This document shows positions 38,093 to 62,272 of a DNA stretch of 64,000 nucleotides, in pieces. The position numbers were made by a program, and so were the translations under genes. The notes beneath the pieces are model-generated. The model was not told the DNA's origin, did not search any database, and saw nothing but the letters and a program-made list of their open reading frames with translations. Position 1 is the first letter of the stretch. Each line of letters opens with the position of its first letter. This DNA is from a virus. The DNA lies in IMG/VR virus record IMGVR_UViG_3300001567_000262, positions 32,001 to 96,000 of that record. One strand, 5' to 3'.

Positions 38093-38545
38093 TTAGGGTG
38101 GCTCGGTTGAAAACGAAAGTTTAACGCGTGCACGATTGCAAAATGCTAAAAAACCTTTTGTTAATCGGCTTCATTGCAAACTGCGTTATTGTTATTGCGC
38201 AACCGCCTTCTTTTCAAAACTCCTATTTAGCTCGCTCTTGTCAGTTCGTGAATTTCTGTTTTTCAACGACCAAGCACTCTCAAACTCTAAAAATCTGAAA
38301 GAGAAAAATACCCGCTGGTTAACAGCCCGTGTTAACAGAAACGAGACTTTCTCATCTTTCACATTAAATCAAAACAGTCCATCCTCTGAGCCAACGGGCG
38401 AAAATTATTGTTTTTCCGATTTCTTACAGAATGTGACGAAAACATTTTACTCAAGGTTTTCTCCTGTCGCACCCAGAGGCTTATCATAATAAACGACAAC
38501 GATAAAAAGCCAGAAGAGAAATCTTCCTCACAAAAACAATATTAC

Positions 38546-40111
38546 ATGAGAACACAAGAGGAAACTGTTTCACCGTCTCTTTCTATGCCGCCCATTCGCG
38601 CGGCGATTTACGCACGCATGTCCACTGAACATCAGCAATACTCCATAGATAATCAAGTGGATGAAATCCGCAAGTATGCCTCCAATCAAAACATGGAGAT
38701 AGTGCGTATCTTTAAGGATGAAGGAAAGAGCGGTCTTACTCTCAATGGTCGTCCGGCAATGAAACAGCTTATAGATATAGCGAGAAGCGGCACTGCGGAT
38801 TTTAGTATAATTCTGGTTTACGATGTCAGCCGATGGGGCAGATTCCAGAATCCAGAAGAAGGGGGATACTACGAATTCATTTGTTTCAAGGCCGGAATCG
38901 GAGTAATTTATTGCGCAGAGGACTTCAAAAATGACGGCACAATGGCTTCCGGGTTGCAAAAATTTCTTAAAAGATACATAGCAGGCAATCAAAGCGACAT
39001 ACTTTCAATGAAGGTTTTTATAGGTCAATGCAGGCTGATTAACCTTGGTTACCGCCAAGGCGGCCATGCGGGTTTTGGATTGCGCCGGATGCTAATCGAT
39101 CATAATGGTGCCCCGAAAGGGGTTCTCAAGTATGGTGAGATGAAAAGCATCCAGACTGACCGTGTGATTCTTATTCCTGGCCCGGACGAGGAAGTGAAAC
39201 TCGTTCGCTGGATATACGAGCAATTCGTTGATCATGGAAAACACGAACGCGATATTGCCGAGATGCTAAATGTAAAGGGAGTAATAACTGATCTTGGCCG
39301 TCCCTGGAACAACAGTACTGTTCGTCAAGTTCTCATAAATGAGAAATACATTGGCAACAACGTATTCAACAGGGTAAGTTTCAAACTCAAAAAGATGCGT
39401 GTGAAAAATCCCAGCGACCTGTGGGTTCGCGCTGATGGCGTTTTCGAGGCGATTGTCGATCCGGATAAATTTATCAGGGCACAGGAAATTTTCAATGAAC
39501 GCACAAAAAAGTATTCCAACGATGAGATGATTGATATGCTCAAAGCCCTTTATAAAAAGAAGGGCTGGCTTTCCGCTATTATTATTGACGAATGCGAAGA
39601 CATGCCTTCCAGTGCTGTGTACAGAAATCGTTTCGGTGGTTTAATCAGGGCATATCGACTGGTGGGATATGTTCCCGACGCTGATTACTCCTATCTTGAG
39701 ATCAACGCTCGTATAAGAGAGATGTATCCACAGATCGTAGAAGAAGTGATCGCTAAACTTCAGGAGCAAGGTGGAACCATTGAGTACGCTGAGGAAACCG
39801 GTCTGATCAAAGTGAACGGCGAATTCACCGCACTTGTAATAATTTCCCGTTGCCATTTCACAGGCGCCGGGGCTTTGCGATGGAACATACGATTGAATCC
39901 GACCCTGACCCCGGACGTCACTATTGCGGTACGGCTTGATTACTTGAACAAGGCGCCCCTCGATTATTATCTCCTTCCCTCACTTGATATCACGGTGGAT
40001 AAACTCAGACTGGCCGAACAGAACGGCATATATCTTGATGTGTACAGGTTTGAAAATCTGGATTTCTTTTACAGCCTGGCTCGCCGTGTGAAGATCGGAG
40101 TTGCGATATGA
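38546..40111 (+). CDS. Large serine recombinase (resolvase + recombinase domains)
   Basis: AAIYARMSTEHQ catalytic motif, DEGKSG, VYDVSRWGR, NEKYIG; start uncertain (38546 or 38585). Confidence 0.88.
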   Translation: MRTQEETVSPSLSMPPIRAAIYARMSTEHQQYSIDNQVDEIRKYASNQNMEIVRIFKDEGKSGLTLNGRPAMKQLIDIARSGTADFSIILVYDVSRWGRFQNPEEGGYYEFICFKAGIGVIYCAEDFKNDGTMASGLQKFLKRYIAGNQSDILSMKVFIGQCRLINLGYRQGGHAGFGLRRMLIDHNGAPKGVLKYGEMKSIQTDRVILIPGPDEEVKLVRWIYEQFVDHGKHERDIAEMLNVKGVITDLGRPWNNSTVRQVLINEKYIGNNVFNRVSFKLKKMRVKNPSDLWVRADGVFEAIVDPDKFIRAQEIFNERTKKYSNDEMIDMLKALYKKKGWLSAIIIDECEDMPSSAVYRNRFGGLIRAYRLVGYVPDADYSYLEINARIREMYPQIVEEVIAKLQEQGGTIEYAEETGLIKVNGEFTALVIISRCHFTGAGALRWNIRLNPTLTPDVTIAVRLDYLNKAPLDYYLLPSLDITVDKLRLAEQNGIYLDVYRFENLDFFYSLARRVKIGVAI

Positions 40112-42316: not shown

Positions 42317-43363
42317 TCAGATCAGTTCATACCAAGTGCCGCGTCCTGTGCCGCGCCGGCGCAGGTGTCCTGATTCCACCAGCTTTCGAAGATGCACTTT
42401 GATGGTATTCCGGTTTGCACCGATGATTTTCTCGGCGGCAGCGATTGTGACTCGACCGTGCTCGCGGGCTATCTCGACAAGCTGCTCAGACAGCGGCGGC
42501 AGCGCGGCGATAAGTTTTTCCCGTTCCACCTTTTTCCGAAGCATGTTTTTCTGCGCAATCATGCACTCCAGAAAAAACTCCAGCCATTCGTGAAGTTGCG
42601 ATTCATCCACATCGAGTGTGGACTGCGCCCGCCGCAGCGCTCTGTAATATCCGTCTTTGTTGTCTTCAATAACTCGTTCGAAAGAACTGTACGGCACATA
42701 AGAATAACCGGCCCGGAGCAGCAGTAACGTTGTGAGCGCGCGGGAAAGCCGCCCGTTGCCGTCCTGGAACGGATGTATCGCGAGAAAACGGACCACGAAG
42801 ACAGCTATCACAAGCAGCGGGTGCTGTGCGCTGTCGTCGAGAGCTTCCCCCGCCCATTTCACAAGGGTTTCCATCAGTCGCGGCGTGTCGAAAGGCGATG
42901 CGGTCTGAAAAATCACACCCAGGCTTTTTCCATTTTCATCGAAAGCTTCCACATGGTTCGGCAGCTTTTTGTAGTTGCCCCGGTGACGTTCGTCTTTCTG
43001 GGAATGTTTCAGCAGGATGCCGTGGAACTGCTTGATCTGGTTTTGCGTCAGCGGAATCGCCCGCCAGGAATCGAAAATCATTTCCATCAATTCCGCATAC
43101 CCGGCGACCTCCTGCTCGTCGCGCGAACGGAATGAAAAAACCTGAATCCCAGCCAGAAGCCGTTCGATTTCCGCATCCGTGAGCCTGACGCCCTCTATTC
43201 TCGTTGATGATCCGATGGATTCGATAGTGGCGATCTTTTTAAGCGCCGTCAGCCGGTCGGGCGCAATATTACCCAACGCCTGCCAGCGTCCCTTGAACTC
43301 GTCGATCTCGGCAATAAGGCGCAGAATTTTCTGTGTAATTTTCAGTTTTGCCATGAAATCCAT
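42317..43363 (-). CDS. Class II Fic protein with N-terminal inhibitory helix and C-terminal HTH
   Basis: Canonical HPFQDGNGRLSR, inhibitory STRIEG [(S/T)xxxE(G/N)], C-terminal winged HTH (GTGRGTWY). Confidence 0.92.
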   Translation of the reverse strand: MDFMAKLKITQKILRLIAEIDEFKGRWQALGNIAPDRLTALKKIATIESIGSSTRIEGVRLTDAEIERLLAGIQVFSFRSRDEQEVAGYAELMEMIFDSWRAIPLTQNQIKQFHGILLKHSQKDERHRGNYKKLPNHVEAFDENGKSLGVIFQTASPFDTPRLMETLVKWAGEALDDSAQHPLLVIAVFVVRFLAIHPFQDGNGRLSRALTTLLLLRAGYSYVPYSSFERVIEDNKDGYYRALRRAQSTLDVDESQLHEWLEFFLECMIAQKNMLRKKVEREKLIAALPPLSEQLVEIAREHGRVTIAAAEKIIGANRNTIKVHLRKLVESGHLRRRGTGRGTWYELI

Positions 43364-43449: not shown

Positions 43450-44133
43450 TTAATCCGTCAATGGTCCGCTGTAACCGCAGACGCCGGTGCGGGGTGAATT
43501 CACGATGGGAAGGAACATATCTTCATCGCATTCATGCTTTTCGGCGCAGGTGGCGCACAGACAGCCTTTTCCCTCATAAACACACTCGCTGCAAATCCGC
43601 ACTGCCGGTTTGCCGCAGACATCGCATGGAATTACAGGCGGTTCGTTACGGGCGAGCAGGTGGACACCTTTTCCGGGTGAGGCGCCTGCATAAGCGGAGA
43701 TGACTTTCAAGACAAGCTGGGTTGTTGTACCAAAGTCGTAATCGTGAGAAAATTTCATTCCGGGTTCCAGAACTTTGCCGATGGCAACGGCCATGCTGTG
43801 GTCGCCCATGGACTTGTCAGGCTGGGAATAATACTCCATTCCATCGATCTTAAAAACACTCAAATGCCCGCAACACTCGAGCCAGATATCCCGGAGAAAT
43901 CCGTCGAACGCTTTGAGCGTCGTGGAGGCTGGCACGTCAACATGGAGCCAGTACATTGGGCCGCCGTGGGCTTCTACGAGAATGTGGTATATCTCAGACC
44001 GTGGCGCCCCCGCGCCGCCGGATTCCGCTGCGCACTTTTCACGGACGCATTTTTCAATATGCCTGGTCATCGCGTTTTTCTCGACAACCTCGCCGCACTT
44101 TTCACATTTCCCCTGAGACGTTTTTCTTGCCAT
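43450..44133 (-). CDS. pRiA4b ORF-3-like protein with Zn-finger ends
   Basis: LRDIWLECCGHLSVF, YDFGTT; terminal CxxC clusters; C-terminal NSPRTGVCGY. Confidence 0.75.
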   Translation of the reverse strand: MARKTSQGKCEKCGEVVEKNAMTRHIEKCVREKCAAESGGAGAPRSEIYHILVEAHGGPMYWLHVDVPASTTLKAFDGFLRDIWLECCGHLSVFKIDGMEYYSQPDKSMGDHSMAVAIGKVLEPGMKFSHDYDFGTTTQLVLKVISAYAGASPGKGVHLLARNEPPVIPCDVCGKPAVRICSECVYEGKGCLCATCAEKHECDEDMFLPIVNSPRTGVCGYSGPLTD

Positions 44134-44174: not shown

Positions 44175-44951
44175 TTAAAAACCCGATATTTCCCACTGTA
44201 CGGTATCCAGCAATGCCAGTGAATTTTCGTATTCAATCCTATTCAGAAATACAAATCTGGTCATGCTTTCATCTATATTGGCCGAGAACATCAGAAAACT
44301 GTGAATATGACCTGCAAAAACAAATCGCGGCTTCATTCTGCGCACGAGCTGATACAACGGCTCACATCCGAGATTTCTCTTGATTTGGCGATCCAAAACG
44401 GAGGGATCGGGCAAAACACTATCCCTTTCAATAAAGGGAGCCAGGTTTTCGACCGAAGGCCATTCATGGAAAAAGAGCATGTCTATCTCTTTCTCCGATT
44501 CAAACGCTTTCAAATCGTTCGAGGTTAAGTGGTTGTACTTTGCCTTGCCGATCCTGTCGTAATCTTTGGGCGAGTAGTTTCCTGACACCCATCCCATTCG
44601 CATGCCGTTCTCTTCGCAAACCCCTGATCTGCCGAGGTAGTAGAGGTTTCTTATGATCTCACTTTTTCCTTCGTACTCCGACAGCCAACTGTTGTTCTCG
44701 TGATTTCCACCAATGAAGTATGTCTTTCTGGGCACTTTCTGGTCTGTATAATACTTACAGAAGTCACCCGTCTTCCGATGCCTTGCGGGCACATGTATAT
44801 TTTTCAAATCTCGTTCGTCTCTTACTGCTTGAAAATCGCCAAGTTGAACGACCAGATCGACATTGATGCCTTTTTCCTTCTCAATAAACGACACCCGGTC
44901 AAACATACAGTCAAGGCTTCCGTGAATGTCTCCCGCGATTGCTATGATCAT
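44175..44951 (-). CDS. Metallophosphoesterase resembling RNA lariat debranching enzyme Dbr1
   Basis: GDIHG, GDFQAVRDERDL...VP.RHR...F.KYY, FIGGNHE, NLYYLGRSGV, HEWP, LGCEP...MKPRFVFAGHIH. Start moved to ATG 44951. Confidence 0.75.
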   Translation of the reverse strand: MIIAIAGDIHGSLDCMFDRVSFIEKEKGINVDLVVQLGDFQAVRDERDLKNIHVPARHRKTGDFCKYYTDQKVPRKTYFIGGNHENNSWLSEYEGKSEIIRNLYYLGRSGVCEENGMRMGWVSGNYSPKDYDRIGKAKYNHLTSNDLKAFESEKEIDMLFFHEWPSVENLAPFIERDSVLPDPSVLDRQIKRNLGCEPLYQLVRRMKPRFVFAGHIHSFLMFSANIDESMTRFVFLNRIEYENSLALLDTVQWEISGF

Positions 44952-45127
44952 GTGATTTATTCCACGGCAATTATCGCATCGAGGTTGCAGTATCTGGTCT
45001 TGTAGCTTTTGCCGGCGGCAGTTGTTTCCAAAATGGAAATAACTGAATCCTTTAAATGAAAGGTTGAACCCCTGTGGCCAATAAAACAGCTTTTCCAACA
45101 CCACGCATTAGTTCCCCTACACGTTCC

Positions 45128-47182
45128 TTACCCCATGCCCATCGCCATGATGGCAGCCTTGGTGGGGCTGTCGTAGAACTGCCATTGGATGGCGGTGAGG
45201 ACTGAATCGGGGACTTCCGCGAGGTCCCGCTTATTCTCGCTCGGAATGAGAATGCGTTTCGCTCCGGATTCCACGGCCAACTGCATGCGCTCAGGCATGG
45301 CATTCACCTTTAGTAGCATGCCCTGAACACTCATCTCACCGAGCACTACGGTTCTATCCTGAACCGGTTTCGCAAGAATCGCGGAAACTATCGAAACGAA
45401 AAAAGCCACCGCCGTTTCAGCGCCTTCCTTGGCTTGGTTCAGGTTGATGGCCTGGATGGAAAAATCATATCCTTTCAAATCACGGTCAATCCCCAGATTC
45501 TTTATATTCGCCTTCAGGTATGCGTCAGCGGTTTTGATGGCCTCTTTCATTTTACTGGAGAGATTTCCGAGCGGAATTATTCGCCCCGAACCAGGATTCA
45601 TCTGTGCCTGTAATAAAAACAAAGCGAGCCGATTATCACTCATGTCTGTACCTATCGTATAAACGCTGCCCGGCGCGAGATTCCCTTCAGTGATCAGAGT
45701 GCCGCCGCCCATTTCCGGGAGCGTCACAAATGTCTCCTGTCCGGTCTCCTTGTGAGTGTATGAGAAGTTTGTATCCCAATACTCGATCCCGCCCATTTTC
45801 TTAAGCTGCTCTTTTACCCGCCTGCGCATCTCCATCGCAATTGCGATGTATTCTTCCATTTCTTCGTCCGTAACTTCACCATCCGGATGGAGCAACTTTA
45901 TCAGTCCGGATACGATCTTTCTTACGGCTTTCTGGTCGCGGCCACCGAGATGATTCCCGAATCTGAAATGCCGCTCCGCATAATCTGCATAGCTGTTTTT
46001 TCTTATTTCTCGGAACACTTCGGCAATGTAGTCTGTGACGACGCCGAAATGATTAGTGTACATTTCATCGCGGGTTTTCTGGAACTCCCAGCCGGGAACA
46101 TAAGAATGAATGCGGTCGTAGAAAGCCGTGTCCATTTCTTTCGGCATGGGATAGAAAAGGTTCGATGTGCGCACAATGGTCTCAATATCCCCATCAATGT
46201 TACCCACAAAGACAATCGAACCTTCCGCGGTTATGATGTCCTTGCCGCGGCTGAATGTGCCGTCCTCCATGTATCCTTTCATGATGTTGATGCCGCTTTT
46301 ATCAGAAAAACCGATGCCCGCCGCTTCGTCGAAAGCGACAACATCCCAAAGACAAACCAAGCCCCTTTGCCCGGAAGACAAATTCACGAACATCTGGGCA
46401 GTTGTTGTCTGCCCTCCGGAAACCAAATGGCAGTATGGACTCATCTGCTGGTACACAAAGCTTTTCCCCGTCCCGCGCGGGCCTAGTTCCACCATGTTGA
46501 AGTTTTTCTCGACAAAAGGAATCAGTCTTAACATGCAGTGCAGTTTGCGGCGTTTTGTGTAATAGGGATGGTTCGGTTCGTATCCCATCGAGCGCATCAT
46601 AAGGTCCAGCCACTGGTCTCGGGTGAACTTTTTTCTTCCTTCAATGAACTTCTCAATATTCCGGCTCGAAAGTTGAATCGGCCTGATGCTTTCGACAAAA
46701 AACGGACGGTTCTGTCCTTTGAAAATAAATGTCTCGTCATATTTCAGAACGACTTCCGCCCAAATCCCACCCATCAGCAGGCGGTCATGATTCTTTATTT
46801 CGCTTTCGTCTATGTTAATATAATCGAGATTCAGATTGGACAGATTCGCCCAGTATTTATCATGCGTTTCGACGAGCTTCACGGATATTTTATCTATGAT
46901 TTCATAAGTAGTATGCTGCTTGATTGCCGACTTGATTGCCTCTCGCTCATCGGGTTTCACATATTTGCTCGCCAGCGTCTCCCTAACGAACTCCAGCCCC
47001 TCGTTGATCGTGTCGTCATCGGTCGAGGCGCAATATTTCCCCAACAGAAATTCAATCACGAACGCCGGGACTCCGAAAGAGCTCCGCATCCTTCGCAGAA
47101 GGTCTTTCCGAACGACGAGGCCGGGAAAAACCTCAGTCGCAAGATGGTCCAAGTCGTCCAGAACTATTGGTTGATCTGTCAT
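45128..47182 (-). CDS. brxL: BREX Lon-like AAA+ protein
   Basis: FVEKNFNMVELGPRGTGKS, VVAFDE, MEDGTFSRG; C-terminal Lon-like domain without the usual PSAG serine; follows pglZ. Confidence 0.92.
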   Translation of the reverse strand: MTDQPIVLDDLDHLATEVFPGLVVRKDLLRRMRSSFGVPAFVIEFLLGKYCASTDDDTINEGLEFVRETLASKYVKPDEREAIKSAIKQHTTYEIIDKISVKLVETHDKYWANLSNLNLDYINIDESEIKNHDRLLMGGIWAEVVLKYDETFIFKGQNRPFFVESIRPIQLSSRNIEKFIEGRKKFTRDQWLDLMMRSMGYEPNHPYYTKRRKLHCMLRLIPFVEKNFNMVELGPRGTGKSFVYQQMSPYCHLVSGGQTTTAQMFVNLSSGQRGLVCLWDVVAFDEAAGIGFSDKSGINIMKGYMEDGTFSRGKDIITAEGSIVFVGNIDGDIETIVRTSNLFYPMPKEMDTAFYDRIHSYVPGWEFQKTRDEMYTNHFGVVTDYIAEVFREIRKNSYADYAERHFRFGNHLGGRDQKAVRKIVSGLIKLLHPDGEVTDEEMEEYIAIAMEMRRRVKEQLKKMGGIEYWDTNFSYTHKETGQETFVTLPEMGGGTLITEGNLAPGSVYTIGTDMSDNRLALFLLQAQMNPGSGRIIPLGNLSSKMKEAIKTADAYLKANIKNLGIDRDLKGYDFSIQAINLNQAKEGAETAVAFFVSIVSAILAKPVQDRTVVLGEMSVQGMLLKVNAMPERMQLAVESGAKRILIPSENKRDLAEVPDSVLTAIQWQFYDSPTKAAIMAMGMG

Positions 47183-47197
47183 ATAATCGCCTCCCGG

Positions 47198-49771
47198 TTA
47201 CATTTCTCTTCCAACCGTTAATTTAATACCACCGGGTGGAAACTGCTCCGATGTTTCAATATCACGTATCTCCAATTCCAGCAGTTCGCCCTTTTTGAAT
47301 GATAAAGCTGTATGAAAGAAAAGAGTCACGTTTATTTCATTATCCTGAGCTTCGAGGCGCGCCTCTTTCGGCCCGCTGGCAAGTACAGATGATTTTTCTC
47401 CCGATTCGCCGGTGCGCAATATGTCAATTGCCAGCATCCGTCCGGTCTCCACAAAAAGTGCCATCTGCCCCGCGCCGACTGACGATTTCGGCCTGAGCGT
47501 AACCTTTGCGGATGTCCGCATCAGTTCGAATGCCGGCAGCACCACTTCCACTCCGATGCGTTTTTCAAAAGTCTGTATTTTTGAAATCAGATGCGGGATG
47601 ATAATCTCCTGAAGCGCGGCGCCACCGTGAGAGAACGACTTTTCCGTTTTGAAAAACGACAGGCCCGGGGGAACCGCAATCCACACTTTCTCGTCCCACC
47701 GGCACGGGAAGGAAACAAGCGGCACATCCGCCCCGGCGGGAATCAGCGCGAACCTTTCCTTCAGAACATGACACCATTCCTTTTTACACTCGACTTCGGG
47801 AGGCAGCTTTTCCTCGTCCAGAAGAATGAACCCATGGTCCGTTATCAAATGAACTTCCGGGTAACCCCACTGGTGCAATTTGTGAATCAGTAGAACCAGT
47901 CGTTTCACCTCAAGGCCGACATGGCGAACCAGATTGTCCGCGCTGCCGTGCCCGATATTGTCCAGTTCCTCATGCCCGAACACTACGAGAAGGTCTTTTA
48001 TACCAGATGGTTTCGCAGCCGTGTTCTCTAGGTCTTCAATATCCCGGCAGTCCGCTCCAAATTCAGTCAATAATGATTTTCTGTTTTCAACTGCTGATGT
48101 GTCTTTTCCCTTCAACTTCGGATGAATGCTGTTGTTTTTTATTTCCAAGGACACGGCTGCTCCCTTCTGCGGGAGTAGCGCCGTCATCCCAACGGGCGTA
48201 ACCGTAGGCAACGCGGCTTGCAATGCTTCGATCTCGACATCCTGTCCGAGCAGCATTTCCTTTATTGCATGAGCGCAGTCGTAACGGAGAGCGTCTACGA
48301 TAACGACGGCCCGCTTCCCTCCAGCCGTCCAGATTTTCTCCTCAAGCCGGTCGGTGACATAAGGAATGCCCTCGATATCAGGAGTAGCCTGTCCAGAAAA
48401 TCTTTCAAAGAATCGCTGGTTCAGCAGATTCACATAAGACGCATAAGCGCGGTCGGCGACCTTGCTTATCGTCGGCATCGAACGCTCCATGGCTTCGAAT
48501 CGCAATTTAAGATGCTGCTTGTCCACGAGGGGAGCCTGTTGTATATACAATAAGGCAAACTCAGCGGCGGTATTTCTTTTTTCGATTTCACTCTCTGCTT
48601 TTCCGCAAACCTCAATAAAGCAATCCAGCGCGCCAAGGAGCGACCAAGCGCCAATGGGCGCATTGCTCGCTTTGCTGAATTCCGCTTCCCGGGCTATCCG
48701 TTCCCGATTACGCGCAAAAAATTCCTTCAGAGCGGATATCTTGTCGGCGGCTTCATTGAACGCATCCAGCGTTTTTTGCCAGCGGAGCGATACCAGATGC
48801 GGCAGCCCGAAAGAAACGCCATGTTTATCCGCCGCCCATGCCGAAAGATTGATGTTCGGCTCAACCTCTCTTATCCATCTGTCCCAAGCGGGCCTGCTGT
48901 TTGAATCCCTTAGCCACCGCTGGAGCAGTTGGATGTGATGATCGCGCAGTGCCTGCGCTGGGAGCCGGTTGAGAAATGGGTAATCGGCGGGTTCTCCATA
49001 TCCGATGTAAGTTTCTGTAAGCGCCATAATTTCCACGATGCCGCGAATCCATGCCGCTGGGTCGCCGCCCGCCGCGCCATATCCGTATCGTTCCCGTACC
49101 ATATCGAGGAATTCACCAGACAGGGCTTTTTCATCAAGTGATTGCCACGTCATCTCCGGTGAAACTGCCATGTCCAGAATCGTCTGATCCATGTCACCGA
49201 CGAGACGCGACTGCGCCAGTTCTGGCGTCAGTACGGCGCTCCAGAAATCTTGCGGTCTTTCAATAAACTTTGCCGTATATTTTGCCAGAATGGCATCCGC
49301 GCCGCCGTCGGCGAGTTTTCGTTGGTCCGATTGATTTTCCGGCAGGTTCACACCGGCGAGGCGCAGGAATTTGAAAAGCGTCGGCTTCTTGCCGTCTATG
49401 CGCCACGTCGTGCCGCAGTATTTGTATTCCTCGAGCAGTTCCAGATGATGTGCGCCGTTCTCATCAGGCGAGTCGAGACGTTCTTCGGAGAGCGGCATAT
49501 AAAAAACATAGCGGCGTTTTTTTCGTTGTTTTTCAGAAAGCTGTGCAAGATCGGCAAACACAGAGTGCTTGAGCCAAATCTGGCCCCGCTGTTGTTCCGG
49601 GTCGTATTCAAGGAGAATGAAAGGAGGCGACTTCATCTCGAAAAGGCATTTTCTCAATGCAGGCAAAAGCCGCGCGAATTCTTTTTTCTCATCAAACCAC
49701 AGGCACACTTGCGCTCGTTTCTCATATTGGAATCGCTGGGTGAATTGGCCGATGAGCGCTTCGAGAATCAT
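47198..49771 (-). CDS. pglZ: BREX PglZ alkaline-phosphatase-superfamily protein
   Basis: VVIVDALRYD, LPTVTPVGM, ITDHGF, FSHGG motifs; operon position. Confidence 0.92.
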   Translation of the reverse strand: MILEALIGQFTQRFQYEKRAQVCLWFDEKKEFARLLPALRKCLFEMKSPPFILLEYDPEQQRGQIWLKHSVFADLAQLSEKQRKKRRYVFYMPLSEERLDSPDENGAHHLELLEEYKYCGTTWRIDGKKPTLFKFLRLAGVNLPENQSDQRKLADGGADAILAKYTAKFIERPQDFWSAVLTPELAQSRLVGDMDQTILDMAVSPEMTWQSLDEKALSGEFLDMVRERYGYGAAGGDPAAWIRGIVEIMALTETYIGYGEPADYPFLNRLPAQALRDHHIQLLQRWLRDSNSRPAWDRWIREVEPNINLSAWAADKHGVSFGLPHLVSLRWQKTLDAFNEAADKISALKEFFARNRERIAREAEFSKASNAPIGAWSLLGALDCFIEVCGKAESEIEKRNTAAEFALLYIQQAPLVDKQHLKLRFEAMERSMPTISKVADRAYASYVNLLNQRFFERFSGQATPDIEGIPYVTDRLEEKIWTAGGKRAVVIVDALRYDCAHAIKEMLLGQDVEIEALQAALPTVTPVGMTALLPQKGAAVSLEIKNNSIHPKLKGKDTSAVENRKSLLTEFGADCRDIEDLENTAAKPSGIKDLLVVFGHEELDNIGHGSADNLVRHVGLEVKRLVLLIHKLHQWGYPEVHLITDHGFILLDEEKLPPEVECKKEWCHVLKERFALIPAGADVPLVSFPCRWDEKVWIAVPPGLSFFKTEKSFSHGGAALQEIIIPHLISKIQTFEKRIGVEVVLPAFELMRTSAKVTLRPKSSVGAGQMALFVETGRMLAIDILRTGESGEKSSVLASGPKEARLEAQDNEINVTLFFHTALSFKKGELLELEIRDIETSEQFPPGGIKLTVGREM

Positions 49772-51664
49772 TCATACCACCTTTGCGATGCGAAGCACTC
49801 CGGCCTTCTGGAGAGGTTCGATGTTCACTTTGACGCCGTCGTTGATGTCGGGGTCCCAGCCTTTGGGTCGTTCCTTCGGCGATTTCCAAGGCGTCAGGAT
49901 GCGGAAATCTTTGTCCCCGCCTTCCTTGCCCTCGCGGCGGCCTTCCTGTACCGCTTCGAGCAATCGGTCGAGTTCTTGTGTCTCTTCGAGCCTTGCCTGC
50001 CAATCAATGCGGTCCGCCTCCCTGTTTTCTTTTGCCGCCATCGCGGCCTCGCGCCGCATCAAATCAATCGCGTCCCGCAGATAGCTGCCCCGCAACTTCG
50101 CGAGTCGGTTTGCATCGAACTTGTGATAGTGAACCAGCGCCCCGAACGCCGCTTCGCCTTTGTTCTGCCTGCTCGCGATGTGCCATATTATCGGGCGATT
50201 CTTGTATAAAGAAGCGTGATATTCGAAATACACTTCTTCCAGCCATTGCCGGATGCTCTCCACGGATTTGTATCCCTTTACCCTGTTCTTGAGTTCATTG
50301 ACGATCTCGATTTCAACCTGATTTATGTCGCGTCCGAGAAACAGTAACGCAAGTTCTTTATGAACTCGGTCTATCAGTGCGGTTTCGCCGGATACTGCCA
50401 TGAACGGCACGATGCCGTCTTCGTCTTCATCTACCACGCGCTTGACGATATACGATAACAGCCGCCACACGTGTTCCATGCGTTTCTGTTCCGCACTCTT
50501 TCCTTCCATCTGCGGCCAGATCAGTTCCGGCGGCTGCGTTCCCATGATCTCTTCGATCTCTGCTCGCTTTTTGTCCGGGATGCCATACAGATGATACGCA
50601 TCATCGTTCAGTTCAGCATAAAGTTTCTGAATTCTTAAATCCTCGGCGCTCTCTAACTCTAAGAGCTTATCGAGTCTTTCCGGTATACACATTCCACTTT
50701 CAATAATGCTCTCTCTCAGTATCCAAGTCTTATCAAAATGTGTCGAGATTTCGTTTCCGTTATCCCAAGCGGATTTTGCGTCGAAGATAAGTTTTGCTCT
50801 ATTCTCAATACTCTCTCGTTTGTTTGCTGAGGGTTTCGGAATAGGAACTTTTTTTATCATTCCAACTTCGTATTTACCAAATGTTGAAAAGAAGCCCAGC
50901 ATGAAAAGAAAAATATGGCTCGAAAAAATCCCGAGCAAAAAGAATTGATCTGATTCGTTCAATGGGAAAAATGAGTGCCCTACATGTCCATGAATCCCGG
51001 TTCCGGGCAGTATTCTTGGGCTAAAACCTCGTTGTGAGCGGTATGACCAAGTCAGTCCAGGTTTGAAATAATGTTCAAGACTTGGCAAAGCATTTCCTGA
51101 AGCTTTTAGAGCATCTCTATTCTCTGGTCGCCAATCAATTACCAAATCAATATCTGAGTAAAACCTACAAAACTCTCCACCTTTTGCGAATGAAACCCAA
51201 CCTGTATTTTGCACAACTTCCCAATACTGTCTTACCCATTTCGGATCGTCTCCTGTCGCTTTTCCCTGTCTCGCAAAACCCCAAGTTGGATCAGAAGCGG
51301 GATGTTCTCTAAAAATGTGTGATACAAGTGCAATACGACGATAAGAGAGTGGCGATCCTTCTATTGATAAGAAGTCGCGGCGTGCTACATCGAAACGTAC
51401 TTTTTCTGCGTCATTTCTTATAGCTTGTACAAACATATTATTACGACGATCAGATTGTTTTTTTGCTGGTTTATAGCGTTCCACATCGAAGAAAGCAGCC
51501 TTCTCGCCCTCCGTAACAACATAATATGCCCGCTCGGCCTGTTCCGGTGTTGTTTCGATGCCCTCTCGTGCCTGTGTAGCCTGAATGGTGGAAACCATAA
51601 GTTTCCGTCGCAGGTCAGGATCGGCAAGGATAGCTTTTATGTTGACTCTTTTATTCTTCGCCAA
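49772..51664 (-). CDS. pglX: PglX C-terminal half (target-recognition region) with a fused N-terminal VbhA-like antitoxin segment
   Basis: FAKGGEFCRFY, YFKPGLTWS, RPIIWH, DINDGVKVNI are PglX C-terminal motifs. The first ~54 aa contain TQAREG. Same reading frame as the N-terminal half. Confidence 0.8.
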   Translation of the reverse strand: MAKNKRVNIKAILADPDLRRKLMVSTIQATQAREGIETTPEQAERAYYVVTEGEKAAFFDVERYKPAKKQSDRRNNMFVQAIRNDAEKVRFDVARRDFLSIEGSPLSYRRIALVSHIFREHPASDPTWGFARQGKATGDDPKWVRQYWEVVQNTGWVSFAKGGEFCRFYSDIDLVIDWRPENRDALKASGNALPSLEHYFKPGLTWSYRSQRGFSPRILPGTGIHGHVGHSFFPLNESDQFFLLGIFSSHIFLFMLGFFSTFGKYEVGMIKKVPIPKPSANKRESIENRAKLIFDAKSAWDNGNEISTHFDKTWILRESIIESGMCIPERLDKLLELESAEDLRIQKLYAELNDDAYHLYGIPDKKRAEIEEIMGTQPPELIWPQMEGKSAEQKRMEHVWRLLSYIVKRVVDEDEDGIVPFMAVSGETALIDRVHKELALLFLGRDINQVEIEIVNELKNRVKGYKSVESIRQWLEEVYFEYHASLYKNRPIIWHIASRQNKGEAAFGALVHYHKFDANRLAKLRGSYLRDAIDLMRREAAMAAKENREADRIDWQARLEETQELDRLLEAVQEGRREGKEGGDKDFRILTPWKSPKERPKGWDPDINDGVKVNIEPLQKAGVLRIAKVV

Positions 51665-51665
51665 G

Positions 51666-52520
51666 TTAAGATGTCTCCCAGCTTTCGATAGCTTCTTCTT
51701 CCCATGTTCTGATGAACGCGGCGAGCGGCGCGTAGTCTTTGTGGATGCGTCCTCTTTCGCAAGCTTCGTAATACGCCTCTTCGTCTCGTCGGCGATTGTA
51801 CTGATTCAGCGGCAACAGATCATTCTGCATGAGCAGCAGATTGCAGATAATGAACGCCGCCCGGCCATTGCCCTCGCGGAACGGATGGATGGCTATGAAT
51901 TCGTTCATTGCCTCGCTCACATAGTCATACAGTGCGCCATCATCATCTGAAATAAAAGGTGAGCGCGAAAGAACATTCGCTTCGTATTCCTCCATCAACG
52001 GTTGGATGCCACAGGAAGGAAGCGGCCATTTTGTCGGACCGTCGCCTTTATGCAGGTCCACCGTGCGCCATCCTCCGGCAAATGGATAAATGAACCCCAT
52101 TAGTTCGTGGTGTATCTGTCGGATGAGTTCTAATGTCAGTGGAGCCGGATCGGGTTTGTCGAGCAGATTTTCAACAAACTCCATCGCACGACGGACGCCC
52201 TCATCCTCTCGGCGATTTATCTCCTCGCGGTCGAGACACCCGGCATAATTGAGGCACAAGCCATCTCCGGTCTGAATCCATTCCCAGCTTCTTGCGTAGT
52301 TGTTCCACGGATTAACGACGATGGCGGGCGATTTCTGCTCGGGGAACAGACCACACAGTTCATCGAGACGCTTTTTTTCAAGTTTGCGCTGGGCAGGCGG
52401 GACCACATAGAACGATCCGGGTGCGGCGGCCTGATAGAACTCCTGCGCGTTGCGTCCCTTTCCGCTCTGGAAGCGGAAACCGTAGTCCTTTTCCTCCCAC
52501 CGCCAGCGAATGCCGCTCAT
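51666..52520 (-). CDS. Fic/Doc-family protein inserted within pglX
   Basis: HPFREGNGRAAF (last Arg replaced by Phe), LNYAGCLDREEINRRE class I-like N-terminal motif, IRQIHHELM..IYPFAGGWR; GGAGG RBS, ATGA overlap. Confidence 0.88.
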   Translation of the reverse strand: MSGIRWRWEEKDYGFRFQSGKGRNAQEFYQAAAPGSFYVVPPAQRKLEKKRLDELCGLFPEQKSPAIVVNPWNNYARSWEWIQTGDGLCLNYAGCLDREEINRREDEGVRRAMEFVENLLDKPDPAPLTLELIRQIHHELMGFIYPFAGGWRTVDLHKGDGPTKWPLPSCGIQPLMEEYEANVLSRSPFISDDDGALYDYVSEAMNEFIAIHPFREGNGRAAFIICNLLLMQNDLLPLNQYNRRRDEEAYYEACERGRIHKDYAPLAAFIRTWEEEAIESWETS

Positions 52521-54604
52521 ATCGTGCCTCCCTTGAGGACGATTGCGGCTGTTTCAACGGTTGCGCCGTCCAATATGCCGAAACCGAGATCGAGCATGAC
52601 CAGAAGCGGGTTGCGCTTGAGCAGTATTTCAGTTCGAAGCTTCTCGAACGTGGTTAGCGTGACGAAAGTTGATGACACCAGAGCTCCGACATAACCGTAT
52701 GGTTCTATAAGTTGTGTGGCGCGATCTATGAAGGCGGCATAAATGTCGTTATATGAAAGCGGATATAATTTCCTGATCAGTTCTCTTATCTTCGGCACGA
52801 AGCTGCCGTAAGGAGGATTCATGACGATTGCGTCGAAGCGATGAGAGAGGATGTCGAGGAGTTTGAGACCACGAGCGGTGTCTTCGTAAAAAAGGCGACT
52901 CGCCGGGTCTTTGCCGTTCGTGGTCGCGGCATTTTCCACGGCTGCTAACAATTCATTCTTCAATTCCTCTGCTTCCTGTTGCATCAGCCTGCGCTCGAGG
53001 ACAAGCTGCTCGGCGACGGCGCGGTCGCCCTCTGCGACGATGGATTCAAGGTCAAGCTGTTTCAGTTTTCTTTCATCGAACAGCTTTGTCATTCCCTTTG
53101 CGCGGCCTCGCTCCTCGATCCAGTCGTCGAGTACACGGGACACGCTCTCCGAGACTTGGACGAGTGCGCCGAGTTCTCCAGTGTACTGAAGGTTTTCCCA
53201 GAGCGTTTTAATGAGTCGTTCCTGAAGCTTCGAATCGCCGAATTTTTTATTGAGATTTTCGATTAGGTGCGTGAGTTGTTCCTGCCCGAGGTCAACTGTA
53301 TTCGCAACAACGAGGTTAGTGCGACGAACATGGACATCTTCAGGTGAAAAGCCGTGCTGGCGGGCCGATTCCTTTGCCGTCAGCAGCAGAGACAGAGTGG
53401 CGATTTGGATAGCACGGGGGTCTATGTCTATTCCAAATATATTGTTTTCGATAATTGCGGCCGGGATATCCTTTTTATTTTTCACGGACGGCTCGCTGGG
53501 CCAGCCTTCTTTTCCGGCGTTCTCGATTTCATCGAGGTACATTTGGTAAAACAATCCGAACGCGTATTGCCCGAAGTGCATAGTTCCGCATGCGGGATCA
53601 AGGAGAGCTATATCTCGCGCGAGTTTGAATGTTTCGATCCGGCCTTCCTCGGTGACACGCTGGTATCGGATTTTCTCGCCGGTACGCGGAACAAGATAGT
53701 CGGCAACGGGCTCGTCCGATACGCGTTCATCCGGTAGCGGTGGTGGACCTTGCGGCTTCAGAGATGAATCAGGATGCATCTGGAGCCAGAGACGGCCGAG
53801 AGTATTGTCCACCAGCGTTTTCACGACCCAAGACGGAGTATAGAACTGGTTGATAACGGAAAGCTCATAGGAACTCCGAGGGGTACCCTTGTTTTCATCG
53901 CGCACTTTCTTTTTCTCGTCGCGATTGAAAAACTGATAGACCCAGCCAAGAAAATCAACAGCCTTGAAAGCGTCTTCCGGCAACTCGCTGTTGAGCAAGC
54001 CGATGACTTTCACAAGGCAGGCATGGGTCGGCCAGACGCAGGCATATTCATGTTCGGGGTCGAAAAGGATGCGAATTTCCGTTGTGATATGGCGGAATGC
54101 GGCGGTGAGCGCATCTCGCAGGAGCGATTCTTCGGCGTCCTGTTCGTACTTGTATCGTTCGCCACCGGCTTCCCTGAAATCGCGCAGATATCGGGAACGC
54201 GCCTGATCTGATATCGGAGTGATTATTTCCGTCAGTTCACTTTCCGCGCCCGATTTCCCCGGCGTTGGGAGAAAAAGCAATTTGCGCGCTTCCATGCTTT
54301 TGAGTCCTACGAGGCGATTCAGCAGAGTGTATGTGAGTTCGCGGATAACATTGTCCCACCCGCGCTGTGGGGTGCCTTCCGCGAGAGTGTCGCGGTTAAG
54401 CAGAGCTTCCACGCGCTCCCGCACGGCTTTGTCTGCATCGGACAGAGGCATTTTATCGAGCGGCTGATGTTTCCCGTCCGGTCGCAGACCAAGGCGCCTT
54501 AGCTGCGCGGTGAAATCCGTCTCAAGTTCCTTGCGGAGCTTGGGAACCCAGGACTTGACCGCTTCCTTGTGAGTATCTGAAAGTGATTTACGTTCGATAT
54601 TCAC
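52517..54604 (-). CDS. pglX: PglX N-terminal half (adenine methyltransferase motifs I and IV)
   Basis: GWVYQFF, QFYTPSWVV, LLDPACGTMHF, FGIDID, VMNPPY; stops just after the ..VETAAIVLKG segment; GTGA overlap with brxC. Confidence 0.88.
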   Translation of the reverse strand: MNIERKSLSDTHKEAVKSWVPKLRKELETDFTAQLRRLGLRPDGKHQPLDKMPLSDADKAVRERVEALLNRDTLAEGTPQRGWDNVIRELTYTLLNRLVGLKSMEARKLLFLPTPGKSGAESELTEIITPISDQARSRYLRDFREAGGERYKYEQDAEESLLRDALTAAFRHITTEIRILFDPEHEYACVWPTHACLVKVIGLLNSELPEDAFKAVDFLGWVYQFFNRDEKKKVRDENKGTPRSSYELSVINQFYTPSWVVKTLVDNTLGRLWLQMHPDSSLKPQGPPPLPDERVSDEPVADYLVPRTGEKIRYQRVTEEGRIETFKLARDIALLDPACGTMHFGQYAFGLFYQMYLDEIENAGKEGWPSEPSVKNKKDIPAAIIENNIFGIDIDPRAIQIATLSLLLTAKESARQHGFSPEDVHVRRTNLVVANTVDLGQEQLTHLIENLNKKFGDSKLQERLIKTLWENLQYTGELGALVQVSESVSRVLDDWIEERGRAKGMTKLFDERKLKQLDLESIVAEGDRAVAEQLVLERRLMQQEAEELKNELLAAVENAATTNGKDPASRLFYEDTARGLKLLDILSHRFDAIVMNPPYGSFVPKIRELIRKLYPLSYNDIYAAFIDRATQLIEPYGYVGALVSSTFVTLTTFEKLRTEILLKRNPLLVMLDLGFGILDGATVETAAIVLKGGTI

Positions 54605-57600
54605 TTAATTACCACCGTGAATCCTTTTCGAATTCTCGTTTTGAGCTGCTCGCCGATGACGGAGAGTGTCTGATCCACATCGGCTTCGGTTTTCAGCCGT
54701 TTTCCCGCAAGTTCCTGAGACGGCTGCCAGTCGCAAACTTTTTCTGCTTCACCTGTCTTCGTGGGAGCGGCAAGGCCGATCAGTTCGGTTTCGACCTGGC
54801 CGCGATAACCGGGCAAAGCCATCAGAGTCTGGGCAAGAGAAGTCAGGCTACTCTTTGCGGCGGCAGCGAGAAGCGTTTCCGCTGAACTTAGAGGAATTTC
54901 CGGATAGTTGCACGGCCCGCCGGGACCGAAGACCTTTTCAAGGACGGCATCGCGGCTTTCAGCGGGGGCATTTTTGTAGGCACTCCCACCTTTTATCGTA
55001 TTTATAAGATTTTCAATCTCGGTCTGCACCTTTTTGTATGCATCTTTGTAAGCGCCCCGGTAAGCGCCAAGCGCAGTTTCGTACGCGGCCCTGTAATCCG
55101 GCCAGCGATCAACAACCGATTTGTCACCGATGATCGCATCCATATCCTTCAGCGCCTGTCCGAGTCTCGTGCTTTCGGGATTGTCGGCGGGAATCGGATG
55201 ATTTGCGGCAAGATTTGCGAGTTTGCGGGATGCGAAATAAGCCTGATGCCGGTTGTCGTCAAGGAAGGCGCGAATCGCGGACATGGCCTTCTGGAAGCTC
55301 TTCCATTCCGCGGCTCTCGACAGGAAGGCCGTCACCGCTTTTGTCGGGTCTTTGATCGTTACAGGTTCATCGAGCGCGGCGCCTGCATCCAATACGATGT
55401 CAGAAATGGGAATTCCCATTTCCGCTCTGCTTTTTGCATCCTGTAGGTCAGATTTTAGTTTTTCACCGAGTTTTCTTACGGCGGATGCGATTGCATTGCC
55501 GGACTCCGGGATGCCGTTCATTCCCAAGGCGATGAGTTCCTTGCTTGCCAGCTTAATCTGCTCCACGGAGAGACTGATTTCGGCCAGTCGGAACGTGACT
55601 TTCTTGAAAGTGTTTATTTTCTGGAAGTTGTCGTTCGTGCCTTTGTAATCGTAAACAGGGGTCGGCCCACCCGGAGATTGCTGCTCCATATAAACCGCAC
55701 CGGCCCTGAAACAGGCAGCGAGCACAATACGAAGAATTTCATCCGGCCAGCCGAACGGCGCGCGGGAAAAACCTTTGAATCCCTTACGGTCATTTGCATC
55801 CATGAGCGCGACGCCGGTGGGATCAATGTCTTCGTCTTCGAGGTCTTTCAGAACTTCGAGCACCTGAGCTACCAAATCTGACTGCTGCTGTAGATTTCCC
55901 TGAGAATCAAACAATCCCAGATCTGGCGCGACCTTATCGAGCGCGGTTGTCGCAGGGTTGAGAATGGCTTTGATGCTTTTATCAAAGTCATAAGATTTAT
56001 CGGCAATGCTGAACCGAGGATAAACATTTGGAATAACCGAAGTTAGCGCGGTTTGAACAGGCTCCTTGAAATCGGTGGCTCTTTCTAATTCATTTTCCAA
56101 GCCGCCGTAGTAAACCGTTCCTTTAAGAAATGCCTGTTCCAAATCCTTAACAAGCGATGTTTTCAGATCATCCCGTTCCTTGCGTTTTTCAGCAAGCGCA
56201 TCCTGCGTGGATTTCGAAGTATCCTCTGTGAATCGCTTATCTCCACACACTTTCACGAGGGCTTCATATCGTTTGAATCTCAGTTCGAGATTATCGGGGA
56301 CATCGGCAACCCACCATACCTTGCGCCCCTTAGCGCTGTCGGCCTGATTGCGCCGTTTGATTTCTTCGATCTCCTGTTTTCTGCCGGACATGAGCGGGCT
56401 GACGAAACAAACTTCGATTTCAGACCCGGTTTCAATTGCCTCGCCATCGAGATAAACACCATAGGAAAATGGAACTTTCGTTATGCCGTATGGAACCGTG
56501 AAATTCAGAAGTTTTTTCTTCGTTGTCAGTTCCATCTTGGTGATTTCCTGAGATGTTCTGCGGACGGCAGCGATACTGATGCTCTTCGAACCACCGGAAC
56601 GAACCATTTCCTGAATATACTGCTCGATAGTGCGCTCCTGTTCGTCCAGGTATTTCCATTCTCCGGTTGCTTCGTCGCGAGCTACATAACCCGCTTCCTG
56701 AAGCTTGCCCAATGTCTTTTCCACATTCTCTCGTAATTGCGGGATATCCGTTTTGAAATCGGTCACAAGCAACTTTGCAATCGTTTCGGAGATTCTTGGG
56801 ACCCATGGAACCCGCTGTAACAACCATAGCACTTTCAGCACTTTCGCCGGGTCAATCGGAGTTCCGGTCACGCGCTCATCAGATTCCCGAATAGACCGTA
56901 CACCCGCGGCGCCGAGATATTCTTGGGACAAAAGATCATTTTCAACAGCGTCGAATATCATGTCGAAGCTCACAACGGCGCCCACTTCGGAGTCTGCGAT
57001 TTCCTGCAAGGATGTCATGACGACGGAAATCATGGAGCGCACACCGCCGGACAGCCGGAAGCCGGACAATGCTTCGAAGATATCCTGAGAAAGCCGTATC
57101 TGGTGCGGCAGAAGCGGATAGCAATCGATGAACGCCCGTTCATCCACAGTGCCGAGAAATCTGCTTGCTTTCAGATCAGCAAGCTGTGAAATATATCCTT
57201 CATTGTCCAGATACAACTTTTTTAATTGCGGCTCTTGCGCCGGATATTTTTTTAGAATCCTCTCCGATACAACTTTATTGATTTCATCCGAAATGAGATG
57301 AGGCTTTAGTTCGAATCTCGCATTAAGGCGTCCGATAAGAGCCGGTTGGAAGTTTGTCCTGTCGACGACTTTTTCCAAGTCCTGCTGGCTGGTTACAAAT
57401 AGCCAGACTTTACCTTTCCCTTTGTTTCCTATCATTTCCGCGATACTGTTTAGCTCGCTGATTTTCTCGTTCGAGTCGCCGATAAATGTTCCCATTTCGT
57501 CGATTACGAAAATCAAGTGCTGAACTTTTCCGCCGGTTGTTTTTTGTGCATCAACCCATGAAACGAGTTCATCCGCGAGGCTCTCGGCTGTGAGCTTTGC

Positions 57601-58335: not shown

Positions 58336-58370
58336 TTATAGACCCTCCTGACAGCTTGTAATACGAGAGT

Positions 58371-58910: not shown

Positions 58911-58912
58911 GA

Positions 58913-62255: not shown

Positions 62256-62272
62256 GTTCACCATTCCCTTTC

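What the first reader, a model, noticed from the sequence alone, without database searches (positions are those of the whole stretch)
44175..44951. Bacterial homologue of the lariat debranching enzyme Dbr1 directly behind brxL
Seen: beyond generic phosphoesterase motifs, long stretches match my recollection of eukaryotic Dbr1 (GDFQAVRNEADL..VPPKYR..FYRYY, FIGGNHE, NIYYLG.AGV, SHDWP, LGSP...LKP.YWFSAHLH). Here they read GDFQAVRDERDLKNIHVPARHRKTGDFCKYY, FIGGNHE, NLYYLGRSGV, FHEWP, LGCEP...MKPRFVFAGHIH. It has Asp where Dbr1 has its first-site Cys, and the lariat-recognition loop looks shorter. It is co-oriented about 180 nt downstream of brxL. Established: Dbr1 hydrolyses 2'-5' phosphodiesters. 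Inference: possible bacterial substrates are retron msDNA, group II intron lariats or 2'-5'-linked signalling nucleotides, so this may be a BREX accessory or a counter-defence enzyme.
Basis: partly seen in the sequence, partly recalled or inferred. Interest (0 to 1): 0.72.

Follow-up and report, generated by a model that had tools for sequence, protein, structure and literature searches.

The report
Bacterial Dbr1-like phosphodiesterase beside BREX
A 258-residue enzyme encoded just after the BREX phage-defence genes is a real but stripped-down relative of the eukaryotic RNA lariat debranching enzyme Dbr1; it belongs to a rare prokaryotic family, and it is a free-moving single gene rather than a regular part of BREX.

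Summary
The minus-strand ORF 44175-44951 (258 aa) is a metallophosphoesterase whose nearest known relative is eukaryotic Dbr1, by sequence and by fold. A profile of 18 family members hits Dbr1 at E 9e-42, CWF19L1 at 1e-10 and every other solved phosphoesterase above 0.3. The AlphaFold model (pLDDT 92) gives Z 27.7 to Dbr1, 21.6 to CWF19L1 and 18.9 or less to all others.

It is not a Dbr1 proper:
- Asp replaces the invariant Dbr1 Cys.
- The lariat-recognition loop is about 9 residues shorter.
- The Dbr1 C-terminal domain is absent.

The protein sits in a small clade of about nine 50%-identity clusters, shared with DPANN archaea and uncultured bacteria, next to the eukaryotic Dbr1 clade.

The BREX link is not conserved. 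None of 51 related brxL loci has such a gene downstream. The 76-78% identical homologues lie in other variable regions, and DNA similarity stops at the gene's edges.

Best reading: a catalytically intact, mobile, single-gene Dbr1-lineage phosphodiesterase carried as island cargo. Action on 2'-5' bonds is plausible but untested. I found no paper on prokaryotic Dbr1 relatives. The scan noted this same stretch once before, and no other DNA.

The parts
44175..44951 (-). Dbr1-like Asp-type metallophosphoesterase, 258 aa (P0001). Metal ligands are D8, H10, D39, N83, H84, H162, H215 and H217.
44952..45127 (-). 176-nt spacer between the brxL stop and the phosphoesterase start. No promoter-like or terminator-like site was found on the minus strand, and there is no unusual RNA structure.
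   Evidence: (z-score 0.58); GC 0.443.
45128..47182 (-). brxL, the last gene of the type 1 BREX system.
   Evidence: BrxL E 1e-280; BrxL_N, BrxL_ATPase, Lon_C.
47198..59821 (-). Rest of BREX type 1: pglZ, pglX C-half, an inserted Fic gene, pglX N-half, brxC, brxB and brxA.
43450..44133 (-). Downstream 227-aa PRiA4_ORF3-like, Cys-rich protein. It starts 41 nt after the phosphoesterase stop and has an AGGAGG ribosome-binding site.
   Evidence: sequence; PF07929, E 1.3e-5, just under the gathering score.
42317..43363 (-). SoFic-type Fic protein, a member of a listed defence family, co-oriented.
   Evidence: SoFic 3e-49.
38408..40111 (+). Large serine recombinase at one edge of the island, followed by two ParB/RepB-like genes.
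60678..62324 (-). Large serine recombinase at the other edge of the island.

Best explanation
Shown:
- The gene encodes a complete binuclear metallophosphoesterase of the Dbr1 lineage, with all eight metal-binding or catalytic positions intact.
- It is a stripped-down form: Asp instead of the Dbr1 Cys, a lariat-recognition loop about 9 residues shorter, and no Dbr1 C-terminal domain.
- It belongs to a small clade shared with DPANN archaea and uncultured bacteria, which lies beside the eukaryotic Dbr1 clade.
- It moves as a single-gene cassette. Here it has landed between BREX and a PRiA4-like/SoFic pair, in an island bounded by two serine recombinases next to prophage tail genes. It is not a conserved BREX component.

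Inferred:
- It is a metal-dependent phosphodiesterase that binds an RNA or nucleotide substrate in the Dbr1 manner. A purine would stack between His10 and His58 (the His16/Tyr64 positions of Dbr1), with loop His141 (the His156 position) touching the adjoining strand.
- It would cleave a phosphodiester with a 2'-O leaving group: short 2'-5' branched or 2'-5' linked nucleic acids or nucleotides rather than long lariats.
- It serves the island in a conflict role on its own, not through BREX.
For: Dbr1 is the nearest family in four separate tests:
- phmmer E 1e-26.
- Family profile 9e-42, against 1e-10 for CWF19L1 and above 0.3 for all other solved phosphoesterases.
- Foldseek TM 0.81.
- An all-against-representatives structural search: Z 27.7, against 21.6 and 18.9 or less.

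The model is confident, with pLDDT 92 and pTM 0.90.

Across 21 family members the metal ligands are invariant. So are Arg44, Phe64 (20 of 21), Trp164-Pro165 and His141, which aligns with the RNA-contacting His156 of Dbr1. Position 58 is His or Tyr where Dbr1 has the adenine-stacking Tyr64 (residue roles from PMC4176325). The His156-His180 and His180-His230 spacings equal those of eukaryotic Dbr1, at 21 and 51 residues, unlike other bacterial Asp-type relatives at 41.

In the tree the window protein plus three 70-78% relatives form a clade (100*). That clade lies inside a 21-row clade (97*). The Cys-type eukaryotic sequences form one clade (96*).

The cassette behaviour rests on DNA comparison. 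Similarity between the window, L009 and L010 is confined to the coding sequence, plus 43 nt upstream between L009 and L010. The gene's GC is 0.447, against 0.492 for brxL and 0.538 for the next gene.

The three bacterial contexts are all variable or conflict-type regions:
- The window has BREX and SoFic.
- L009 has an AAA_14/DUF4143 ATPase, an EAD11-TPR-zinc-finger protein and Ro60.
- L010 has DUF4062-HATPase_c_4, AAA_14/DUF4143 and HicA.

There is a weak match to the PADLOC defence candidate PDC-S10.
Against: Three features reported as essential for debranching by Dbr1 are absent or altered.
- Cys: yeast C11D keeps 7% of bis-pNPP activity and almost no debranching in vivo (PMC5113202).
- The full loop with its invariant Arg158: here Thr in 19 of 21 members.
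- The C-terminal domain: its deletion inactivates Entamoeba Dbr1 in vivo (PMC4176325).

The loop contacts Ile132 and Lys134 are Asn and Ser here. No retron, group II intron or reverse transcriptase is present in the 133-kb record, and no Rfam family is present in the window. Relatives in DPANN archaea sit among housekeeping or unremarkable genes, not defence genes. A defence role therefore rests on three bacterial contexts, two of which come from one study. Nothing shows that the gene is expressed.
Confidence: 0.55

Rival explanations
1. A true BREX accessory. The gene is co-transcribed with brxL, and the enzyme takes part in or regulates BREX defence.
For: It is co-oriented and 176 nt after brxL. 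No terminator-like or promoter-like site was found on the minus strand in the spacer. The same arrangement occurs in three contig records, but these all appear to be the same genome.
Against: None of 51 related brxL loci with at least 900 nt of downstream DNA has a match to the family profile. Of these, 24 have BrxL at least 69% identical (control). The 76-78% identical homologues are not near BREX. DNA similarity stops at the gene's edges. GC is lower than in brxL.
Confidence: 0.1
2. A counter-defence enzyme of the prophage or mobile element. It would destroy host immune molecules that carry 2'-5' bonds, such as 2'-5' linked cyclic or linear oligonucleotides or retron msDNA.
For: The record is classed as a provirus, and phage tail genes lie at 1-19 kb. 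A phage phosphoesterase family matches weakly (phrog_1649, E 1.6e-15), and a viral cluster appears among the language-model neighbours. It follows from the known chemistry of Dbr1.
Against: The closest relatives in 2.9 million viral contigs are only 23-28% identical. The gene lies in a cargo island among defence genes, not in a phage early region. The archaeal relatives are chromosomal.
Confidence: 0.15
3. A phosphoesterase that shares ancestry with Dbr1 but not its specificity. It might be an RNA end-healing 2',3'-cyclic phosphodiesterase/phosphatase, or a nucleotide phosphodiesterase.
For: It has Asp at the first metal site, as non-Dbr1 members of the superfamily do (PMC5113202). The loop is short and there is no C-terminal domain. 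Ro60, an RNA quality-control protein, lies 2.4 kb from the homologue in L009. It is established that other superfamily members such as CthPnkp heal RNA 2',3' ends (cited in PMC5113202).
Against: The Dbr1-specific stretch around the adenine pocket is strongly conserved, as is the loop histidine. This stretch is G-D-F-Q-A-x-R ... D-L ... P-x-K-[HY]-R-x-x-G-D-F. That is hard to explain without a Dbr1-like way of binding the substrate. No RNA ligase or kinase partner is adjacent in any context.
Confidence: 0.3

Closest known systems
Dbr1, RNA lariat debranching enzyme (Entamoeba histolytica structures 4PEF, 4PEI, 5K78; yeast Dbr1)
   Same: The metallophosphoesterase core matches: Z 27.7, rmsd 2.5 A over 243 residues, 27-30% identity. 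Seven of the eight active-site residues are the same. The Dbr1-typical segment between the second and third motifs is shared. Loop His156 is kept, and so are the spacings between the last three histidine motifs.
   Different: Asp replaces the invariant Cys. The lariat-recognition loop is about 9 residues shorter and lacks Arg158, Ile132 and Lys134. There is no C-terminal domain PF05011 (0 of 75 Asp-type or untyped sequences, against about 45 of 45 Cys-type). The host is prokaryotic, and the gene is a mobile single-gene cassette.
CWF19L1 / Drn1 N-terminal phosphoesterase-like domain
   Same: It is the second-best match by sequence profile (1e-10) and by fold (Z 21.6).
   Different: It scores much lower than Dbr1. 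The CwfJ C-terminal domains are absent here.
PADLOC candidate defence family PDC-S10 (single-gene, unvalidated)
   Same: It is a phosphoesterase of similar size, listed as a defence-island candidate. It matches weakly (E 1.6e-11, 41.9 bits), and also matches other Asp-type relatives.
   Different: The match is partial, in two stretches, and low-scoring, so it points to a related family and not membership. The two PubMed Central/bioRxiv records that hold the name are one preprint on freshwater jumbophages; I did not read it.
Other bacterial Asp-type Dbr1-like phosphoesterases (Myxococcota and Actinomycetota clusters; P0022, P0024, P0033)
   Same: They are short, Asp-type and lack a C-terminal domain. 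They are found by the same profile at E around 1e-40 and by the ESM Atlas (TM 0.82-0.89).
   Different: They form a separate clade (98*). They are 24-32% identical, with a different spacing between the last histidine motifs (41 against 51 residues).

Membership tests
Binuclear metallophosphoesterase superfamily (PF00149) | The motifs D-x-H, G-D, G-N-H-[ED], H and G-H-x-H, with the alpha/beta sandwich fold. | tested here: met
   Pfam Metallophos E 2.3e-11, above the cut-off. D8, H10, D39, N83, H84, H162, H215 and H217 are invariant in 21 members. The fold matches many superfamily members.
Dbr1 (RNA lariat debranching enzyme) | A catalytic core closer to Dbr1 than to any other phosphoesterase family. 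| tested here: met
Dbr1 (RNA lariat debranching enzyme) | An invariant cysteine in the alpha metal pocket (Cys14 in Entamoeba, Cys11 in yeast). | tested here: not met
   Asp8 here. Asp in 21 of 21 family members, Cys in 45 of 45 eukaryotic sequences. Requirement: PMC4176325, PMC5113202.
Dbr1 (RNA lariat debranching enzyme) | A 28-residue lariat-recognition loop (residues 130-158) with invariant Arg158 and RNA contacts Ile132, Lys134, Phe136, Phe155 and His156. | tested here: not met
   The loop segment is 16-20 residues, against 24-52 in eukaryotes. Arg158 becomes Thr, Ile132 becomes Asn and Lys134 becomes Ser. Only the His156 equivalent (H141) is kept and invariant.
Dbr1 (RNA lariat debranching enzyme) | The C-terminal domain PF05011, which braces the loop. 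| tested here: not met
   The protein ends 41 residues after the last histidine motif, and PF05011 does not hit. Some archaeal relatives have a different helical extension whose equivalence to the Dbr1 domain could not be shown.
Dbr1 (RNA lariat debranching enzyme) | Hydrolysis of 2'-5' phosphodiester bonds at RNA branch points. | not testable with these tools
   This needs an enzyme assay.
BREX type 1 system (as an accessory gene) | Recurrent linkage to BREX genes in related systems. | tested here: not met
   0 of 51 related brxL loci. The close homologues are in non-BREX contexts.
PADLOC PDC-S10 candidate defence family | A full-length, high-scoring match to the family model. | tested here: inconclusive
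   41.9 bits in two stretches, the best covering residues 184-218 only.

The most novel reading that the evidence does not exclude
This family is the prokaryotic counterpart of Dbr1 and a working 2'-5' phosphodiesterase. It would be the first debranching-type enzyme outside eukaryotes, able to open group II intron lariats, retron msDNA branches or 2'-5' linked immune nucleotides. Its DPANN/bacterial clade would mark the lineage from which the eukaryotic enzyme arose by gaining the Cys, the longer loop and the C-terminal domain.
Probability: 0.25. Interest if true: 0.8.

Novelty: new variant of a known kind. Interest (0 to 1): 0.5.

Why it matters
Dbr1 is treated in the literature as a eukaryotic enzyme. 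A 2025 review lists it for eukaryotes only (PMC12238851), and I found no paper on prokaryotic relatives.

A compact, Asp-type, 258-residue relative in bacteria and DPANN archaea would give a minimal model for how the Dbr1 active site reads a branched or 2'-5' linked substrate. It bears on the origin of the eukaryotic intron-turnover machinery.

If it does cleave 2'-5' bonds, it supplies a missing activity in prokaryotes that have group II introns, retrons and 2'-5' linked immune signals. Such an enzyme could also serve as a small debranching tool. The link to BREX, which made the finding attractive, is incidental.

Tried and rejected
- BREX accessory: rejected on conservation and on the contexts of close homologues.
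- Local substrate source: no reverse transcriptase (PF00078) in the 133-kb record and no Rfam family in the window. The record may be a fragment, so this says nothing about the host genome.
- Reverse transcriptases in genomes of archaeal relatives: 2 of 3 have one. The sample is too small and the kind of RT is unknown, so I did not use it.
- Expression or co-transcription: no RNA holder is listed among the sequencing runs. The DNA holders are hydrocarbon-metagenome runs, probably the source sample.
- Regulatory signals in the brxL spacer: no promoter-like or terminator-like site on the minus strand, no unusual RNA fold and no meaningful repeats.
- RtcR-type control: the sigma-54 activator next to a cluster of distant relatives (L013) shares only the AAA+ domain with the window's RtcR-like protein. 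The lead was dropped.
- Downstream partner: the zinc-finger protein convergent to the homologue in L009 matches the window's PRiA4-like protein only in a short Cys-rich stretch. The 132-aa ORF after the homologue in L010 is unrelated to the archaeal C-terminal extension.
- Equivalence of the archaeal helical extension to the Dbr1 C-terminal domain: the model's domain arrangement is uncertain (pTM 0.63), and the extension did not superpose on the Dbr1 C-terminal domain (rmsd 14-25 A wherever the alignment ran past the core). Left open.

Full report
**What is at the coordinates**

The finding's coordinates hold a minus-strand ORF, from ATG at 44951 to the stop at 44175, encoding 258 aa. A longer frame from a GTG at 45104 exists, but all homologues begin at the M-x-I-x-I-x-G-D position, so the 258-aa form is the likely product.

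Upstream on the same strand lies a complete type 1 BREX system:
- brxA 58913-59821
- brxB 58371-58910
- brxC 54601-58335
- pglX, split into an N-half at 52517-54604 and a C-half at 49772-51664, with a Fic gene between them
- pglZ 47198-49771
- brxL 45128-47182

The spacer between brxL and the phosphoesterase is 176 nt. It has no promoter-like or terminator-like site on the minus strand and no unusual RNA fold.

Downstream lie a PRiA4_ORF3-like Cys-rich protein (41 nt spacer, AGGAGG ribosome-binding site), a SoFic-type Fic protein and a 126-aa ORF. Large serine recombinases at 38408-40111 and 60678-62324 bracket the whole block, and two ParB/RepB-like genes lie inside it. Positions 1-19 kb of the window carry phage tail and baseplate genes. 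The record is an IMG/VR 'provirus' of 133 kb.

**Is it really Dbr1-like?**

Yes. Pfam sees only the generic Metallophos domain. Against all solved structures, however, the single sequence hits Entamoeba Dbr1 at E 1e-26 over residues 3-250. CWF19L1 follows at 5e-7 and nothing else scores.

A profile of 18 family members sharpens this. Dbr1 scores 9e-42, CWF19L1 1e-10, and the next phosphoesterase 0.3.

The AlphaFold model is confident, with pLDDT 92 and pTM 0.90.
- Foldseek ranks nine Dbr1 chains first (E about 1e-18, TM 0.81), then CWF19L1 (0.67), then generic phosphoesterases (0.60 or less).
- A search that does not depend on Foldseek gives Dbr1 Z 27.7 (rmsd 2.5 A, 243 residues, 30% identity), CWF19L1 21.6, aq_1956 18.9 and all others 17 or less.

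**How it differs from Dbr1**

I used the Entamoeba numbering and residue roles from PMC4176325 and column counts over 21 family members and 45 eukaryotic sequences.

Kept:
- All metal and catalytic residues except the first.
- Arg50, Asp54, Pro61, Lys63 and Phe70.
- The Trp-Pro after His180.
- Loop His156, here H141, invariant in the family and present in 43 of 45 eukaryotic sequences.
- A ring side chain at the adenine-stacking Tyr64 position (His in 14 members, Tyr in 7).

Changed:
- Cys14 is Asp in all 21 members.
- Ile132 is Asn, Lys134 is Ser, and the invariant Arg158 is Thr.
- The loop segment is 16-20 residues, against a eukaryotic median of 26.
- The C-terminal domain PF05011 is absent. 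It is found in 45 of the 120 scanned sequences, matching the 45 Cys-type sequences in that set by count.

Published mutagenesis bears on these differences. Entamoeba Dbr1 lacking the loop or the C-terminal domain does not debranch in vivo (PMC4176325). Yeast C11D keeps 7% of generic diesterase activity and almost no debranching (PMC5113202). The protein is thus a member of the Dbr1 lineage but fails three defining features of Dbr1 itself.

**The family**

The family is rare. In 5.8 billion proteins only 33 relatives were found within the length window.

An exhaustive profile search of 1.84 billion representatives gives about nine clusters at E below 1e-83. Below these comes a continuum of about 400 hits under 1e-30. 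The continuum mixes eukaryotic Dbr1 (Cys-type, with the C-terminal domain) and roughly 60 short Asp-type proteins.

In a quick maximum-likelihood tree of 96 catalytic domains:
- The Cys-type sequences form one clade (96*).
- The window protein and three 70-78% identical sequences form a tight clade (100*).
- That clade sits inside a 21-row clade (97*).

Named members of this clade are Woesearchaeota and Nanoarchaeota MAGs. Which prokaryotic group is closest to the eukaryotic clade is unresolved. The tree used the fast setting, so stars deserve caution.

Within the 21-row clade, many members carry a helical extension of about 160 residues. It is either fused or encoded as a separate 167-aa ORF just downstream (E 5e-30). 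The window's subfamily lacks it. Its relation to the Dbr1 C-terminal domain could not be settled.

**Is it part of BREX?**

No evidence supports this, and a direct test argues against it.
- I fetched 80 metagenomic loci encoding BrxL relatives (42-86% identity).
- 51 of them have a complete brxL 3' end and at least 900 nt downstream. None has a match to the family profile in any frame.
- The same pipeline finds the window's gene at E 5e-124.

The two informative close homologues (76-78% identity, L009 and L010) lie elsewhere:
- L009 has an AAA_14/DUF4143 ATPase, an EAD11-TPR-zinc-finger protein and Ro60.
- L010 has a DUF4062-HATPase_c_4 protein, the same ATPase and HicA.

DNA similarity among the three loci is confined to the coding sequence. 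The gene's GC (0.447) is lower than that of its neighbours. The other records with the BREX adjacency are the same genome. The gene therefore behaves as a single-gene cassette that has landed behind brxL once.

**What it probably does**

The active site is complete and conserved, so an active metal-dependent phosphodiesterase is the default expectation. The Dbr1-specific substrate-pocket residues are retained, which suggests a Dbr1-like way of holding a nucleotide next to the scissile phosphate. The elements that clamp the long 3' arm of a lariat are lost, which argues for a smaller or different substrate.

I rank the possibilities as follows:
- Short 2'-5' branched or 2'-5' linked nucleic acids or nucleotides (about 0.3).
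- RNA 2',3'-end healing or another diester (about 0.3).
- No basis for choosing (the remainder).

The three bacterial contexts and the weak PDC-S10 match suggest a conflict-related role. Archaeal relatives, however, sit among housekeeping or unremarkable genes, so the ancestral role may be ordinary RNA or nucleotide metabolism. No local retron, group II intron or reverse transcriptase was found. No close viral homologue exists.

**Novelty**

The PubMed Central/bioRxiv library returned no paper on prokaryotic Dbr1 relatives or on a link between Dbr1 and BREX or phage defence. A 2025 review treats DBR1 as eukaryotic (PMC12238851). One automatic annotation (JGI) already calls a family member 'lariat debranching enzyme', so pipelines have seen the similarity.

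I rate it a new variant of a known kind. Interest is moderate. The homology is solid and evolutionarily suggestive, but the BREX connection is incidental and the chemistry is untested.

The scan's earlier notes contain this same stretch once and no look-alike elsewhere.

Noticed in passing
window 49772-54604: The BREX methyltransferase pglX is split into two ORFs (N-half 52517-54604, C-half 49772-51664). A Fic-domain gene (51666-52520, PADLOC PDC-S04 4e-33) sits exactly between them on the same strand.
   Followed up: partly
window 33322-37100: A two-gene pair with overlapping stop and start codons. One is a 486-aa second metallophosphoesterase (35640-37100, weak PDC-S60 match). The other is a 773-aa MORC-like HATPase_c_3 protein (33322-35643). 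The pair is AT-richer than its surroundings.
   Followed up: partly
window 20107-28313: An RtcR-like sigma-54 activator (26547-28313) lies divergent from a low-GC operon. The operon holds radical SAM/SPASM, amidohydrolase-GNAT and class II aminoacyl-tRNA-synthetase-like genes. No rtcA or rtcB is nearby.
   Followed up: no
L011 5238-6540 (and P0008, P0034): In DPANN-type relatives the Dbr1-like enzyme carries a helical, TPR-like C-terminal module of about 160 residues. The module is fused in some and encoded as a separate overlapping 167-aa ORF in others (E 5e-30 between the two forms).
   Followed up: partly
L013 1-14789: An integrase/AlpA/Toprim-type integrative element carries a sigma-54 activator followed by four Metallophos paralogues and a fifth weak one. 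One of them is a distant Asp-type Dbr1-like protein (P0022). An ankyrin-repeat protein is also present.
   Followed up: partly
L009 6725-10698: Next to a 78% identical homologue lies a convergent EAD11-TPR protein ending in a ClpX-type zinc finger. A Ro60 (TROVE plus vWA) gene lies 2.4 kb away.
   Followed up: no
window 43450-44133: The gene after the phosphoesterase is a PRiA4_ORF3-like protein, just under the Pfam cut-off. It has Cys-rich clusters at both ends that look like zinc fingers. It has no PHROG or PADLOC match.
   Followed up: partly
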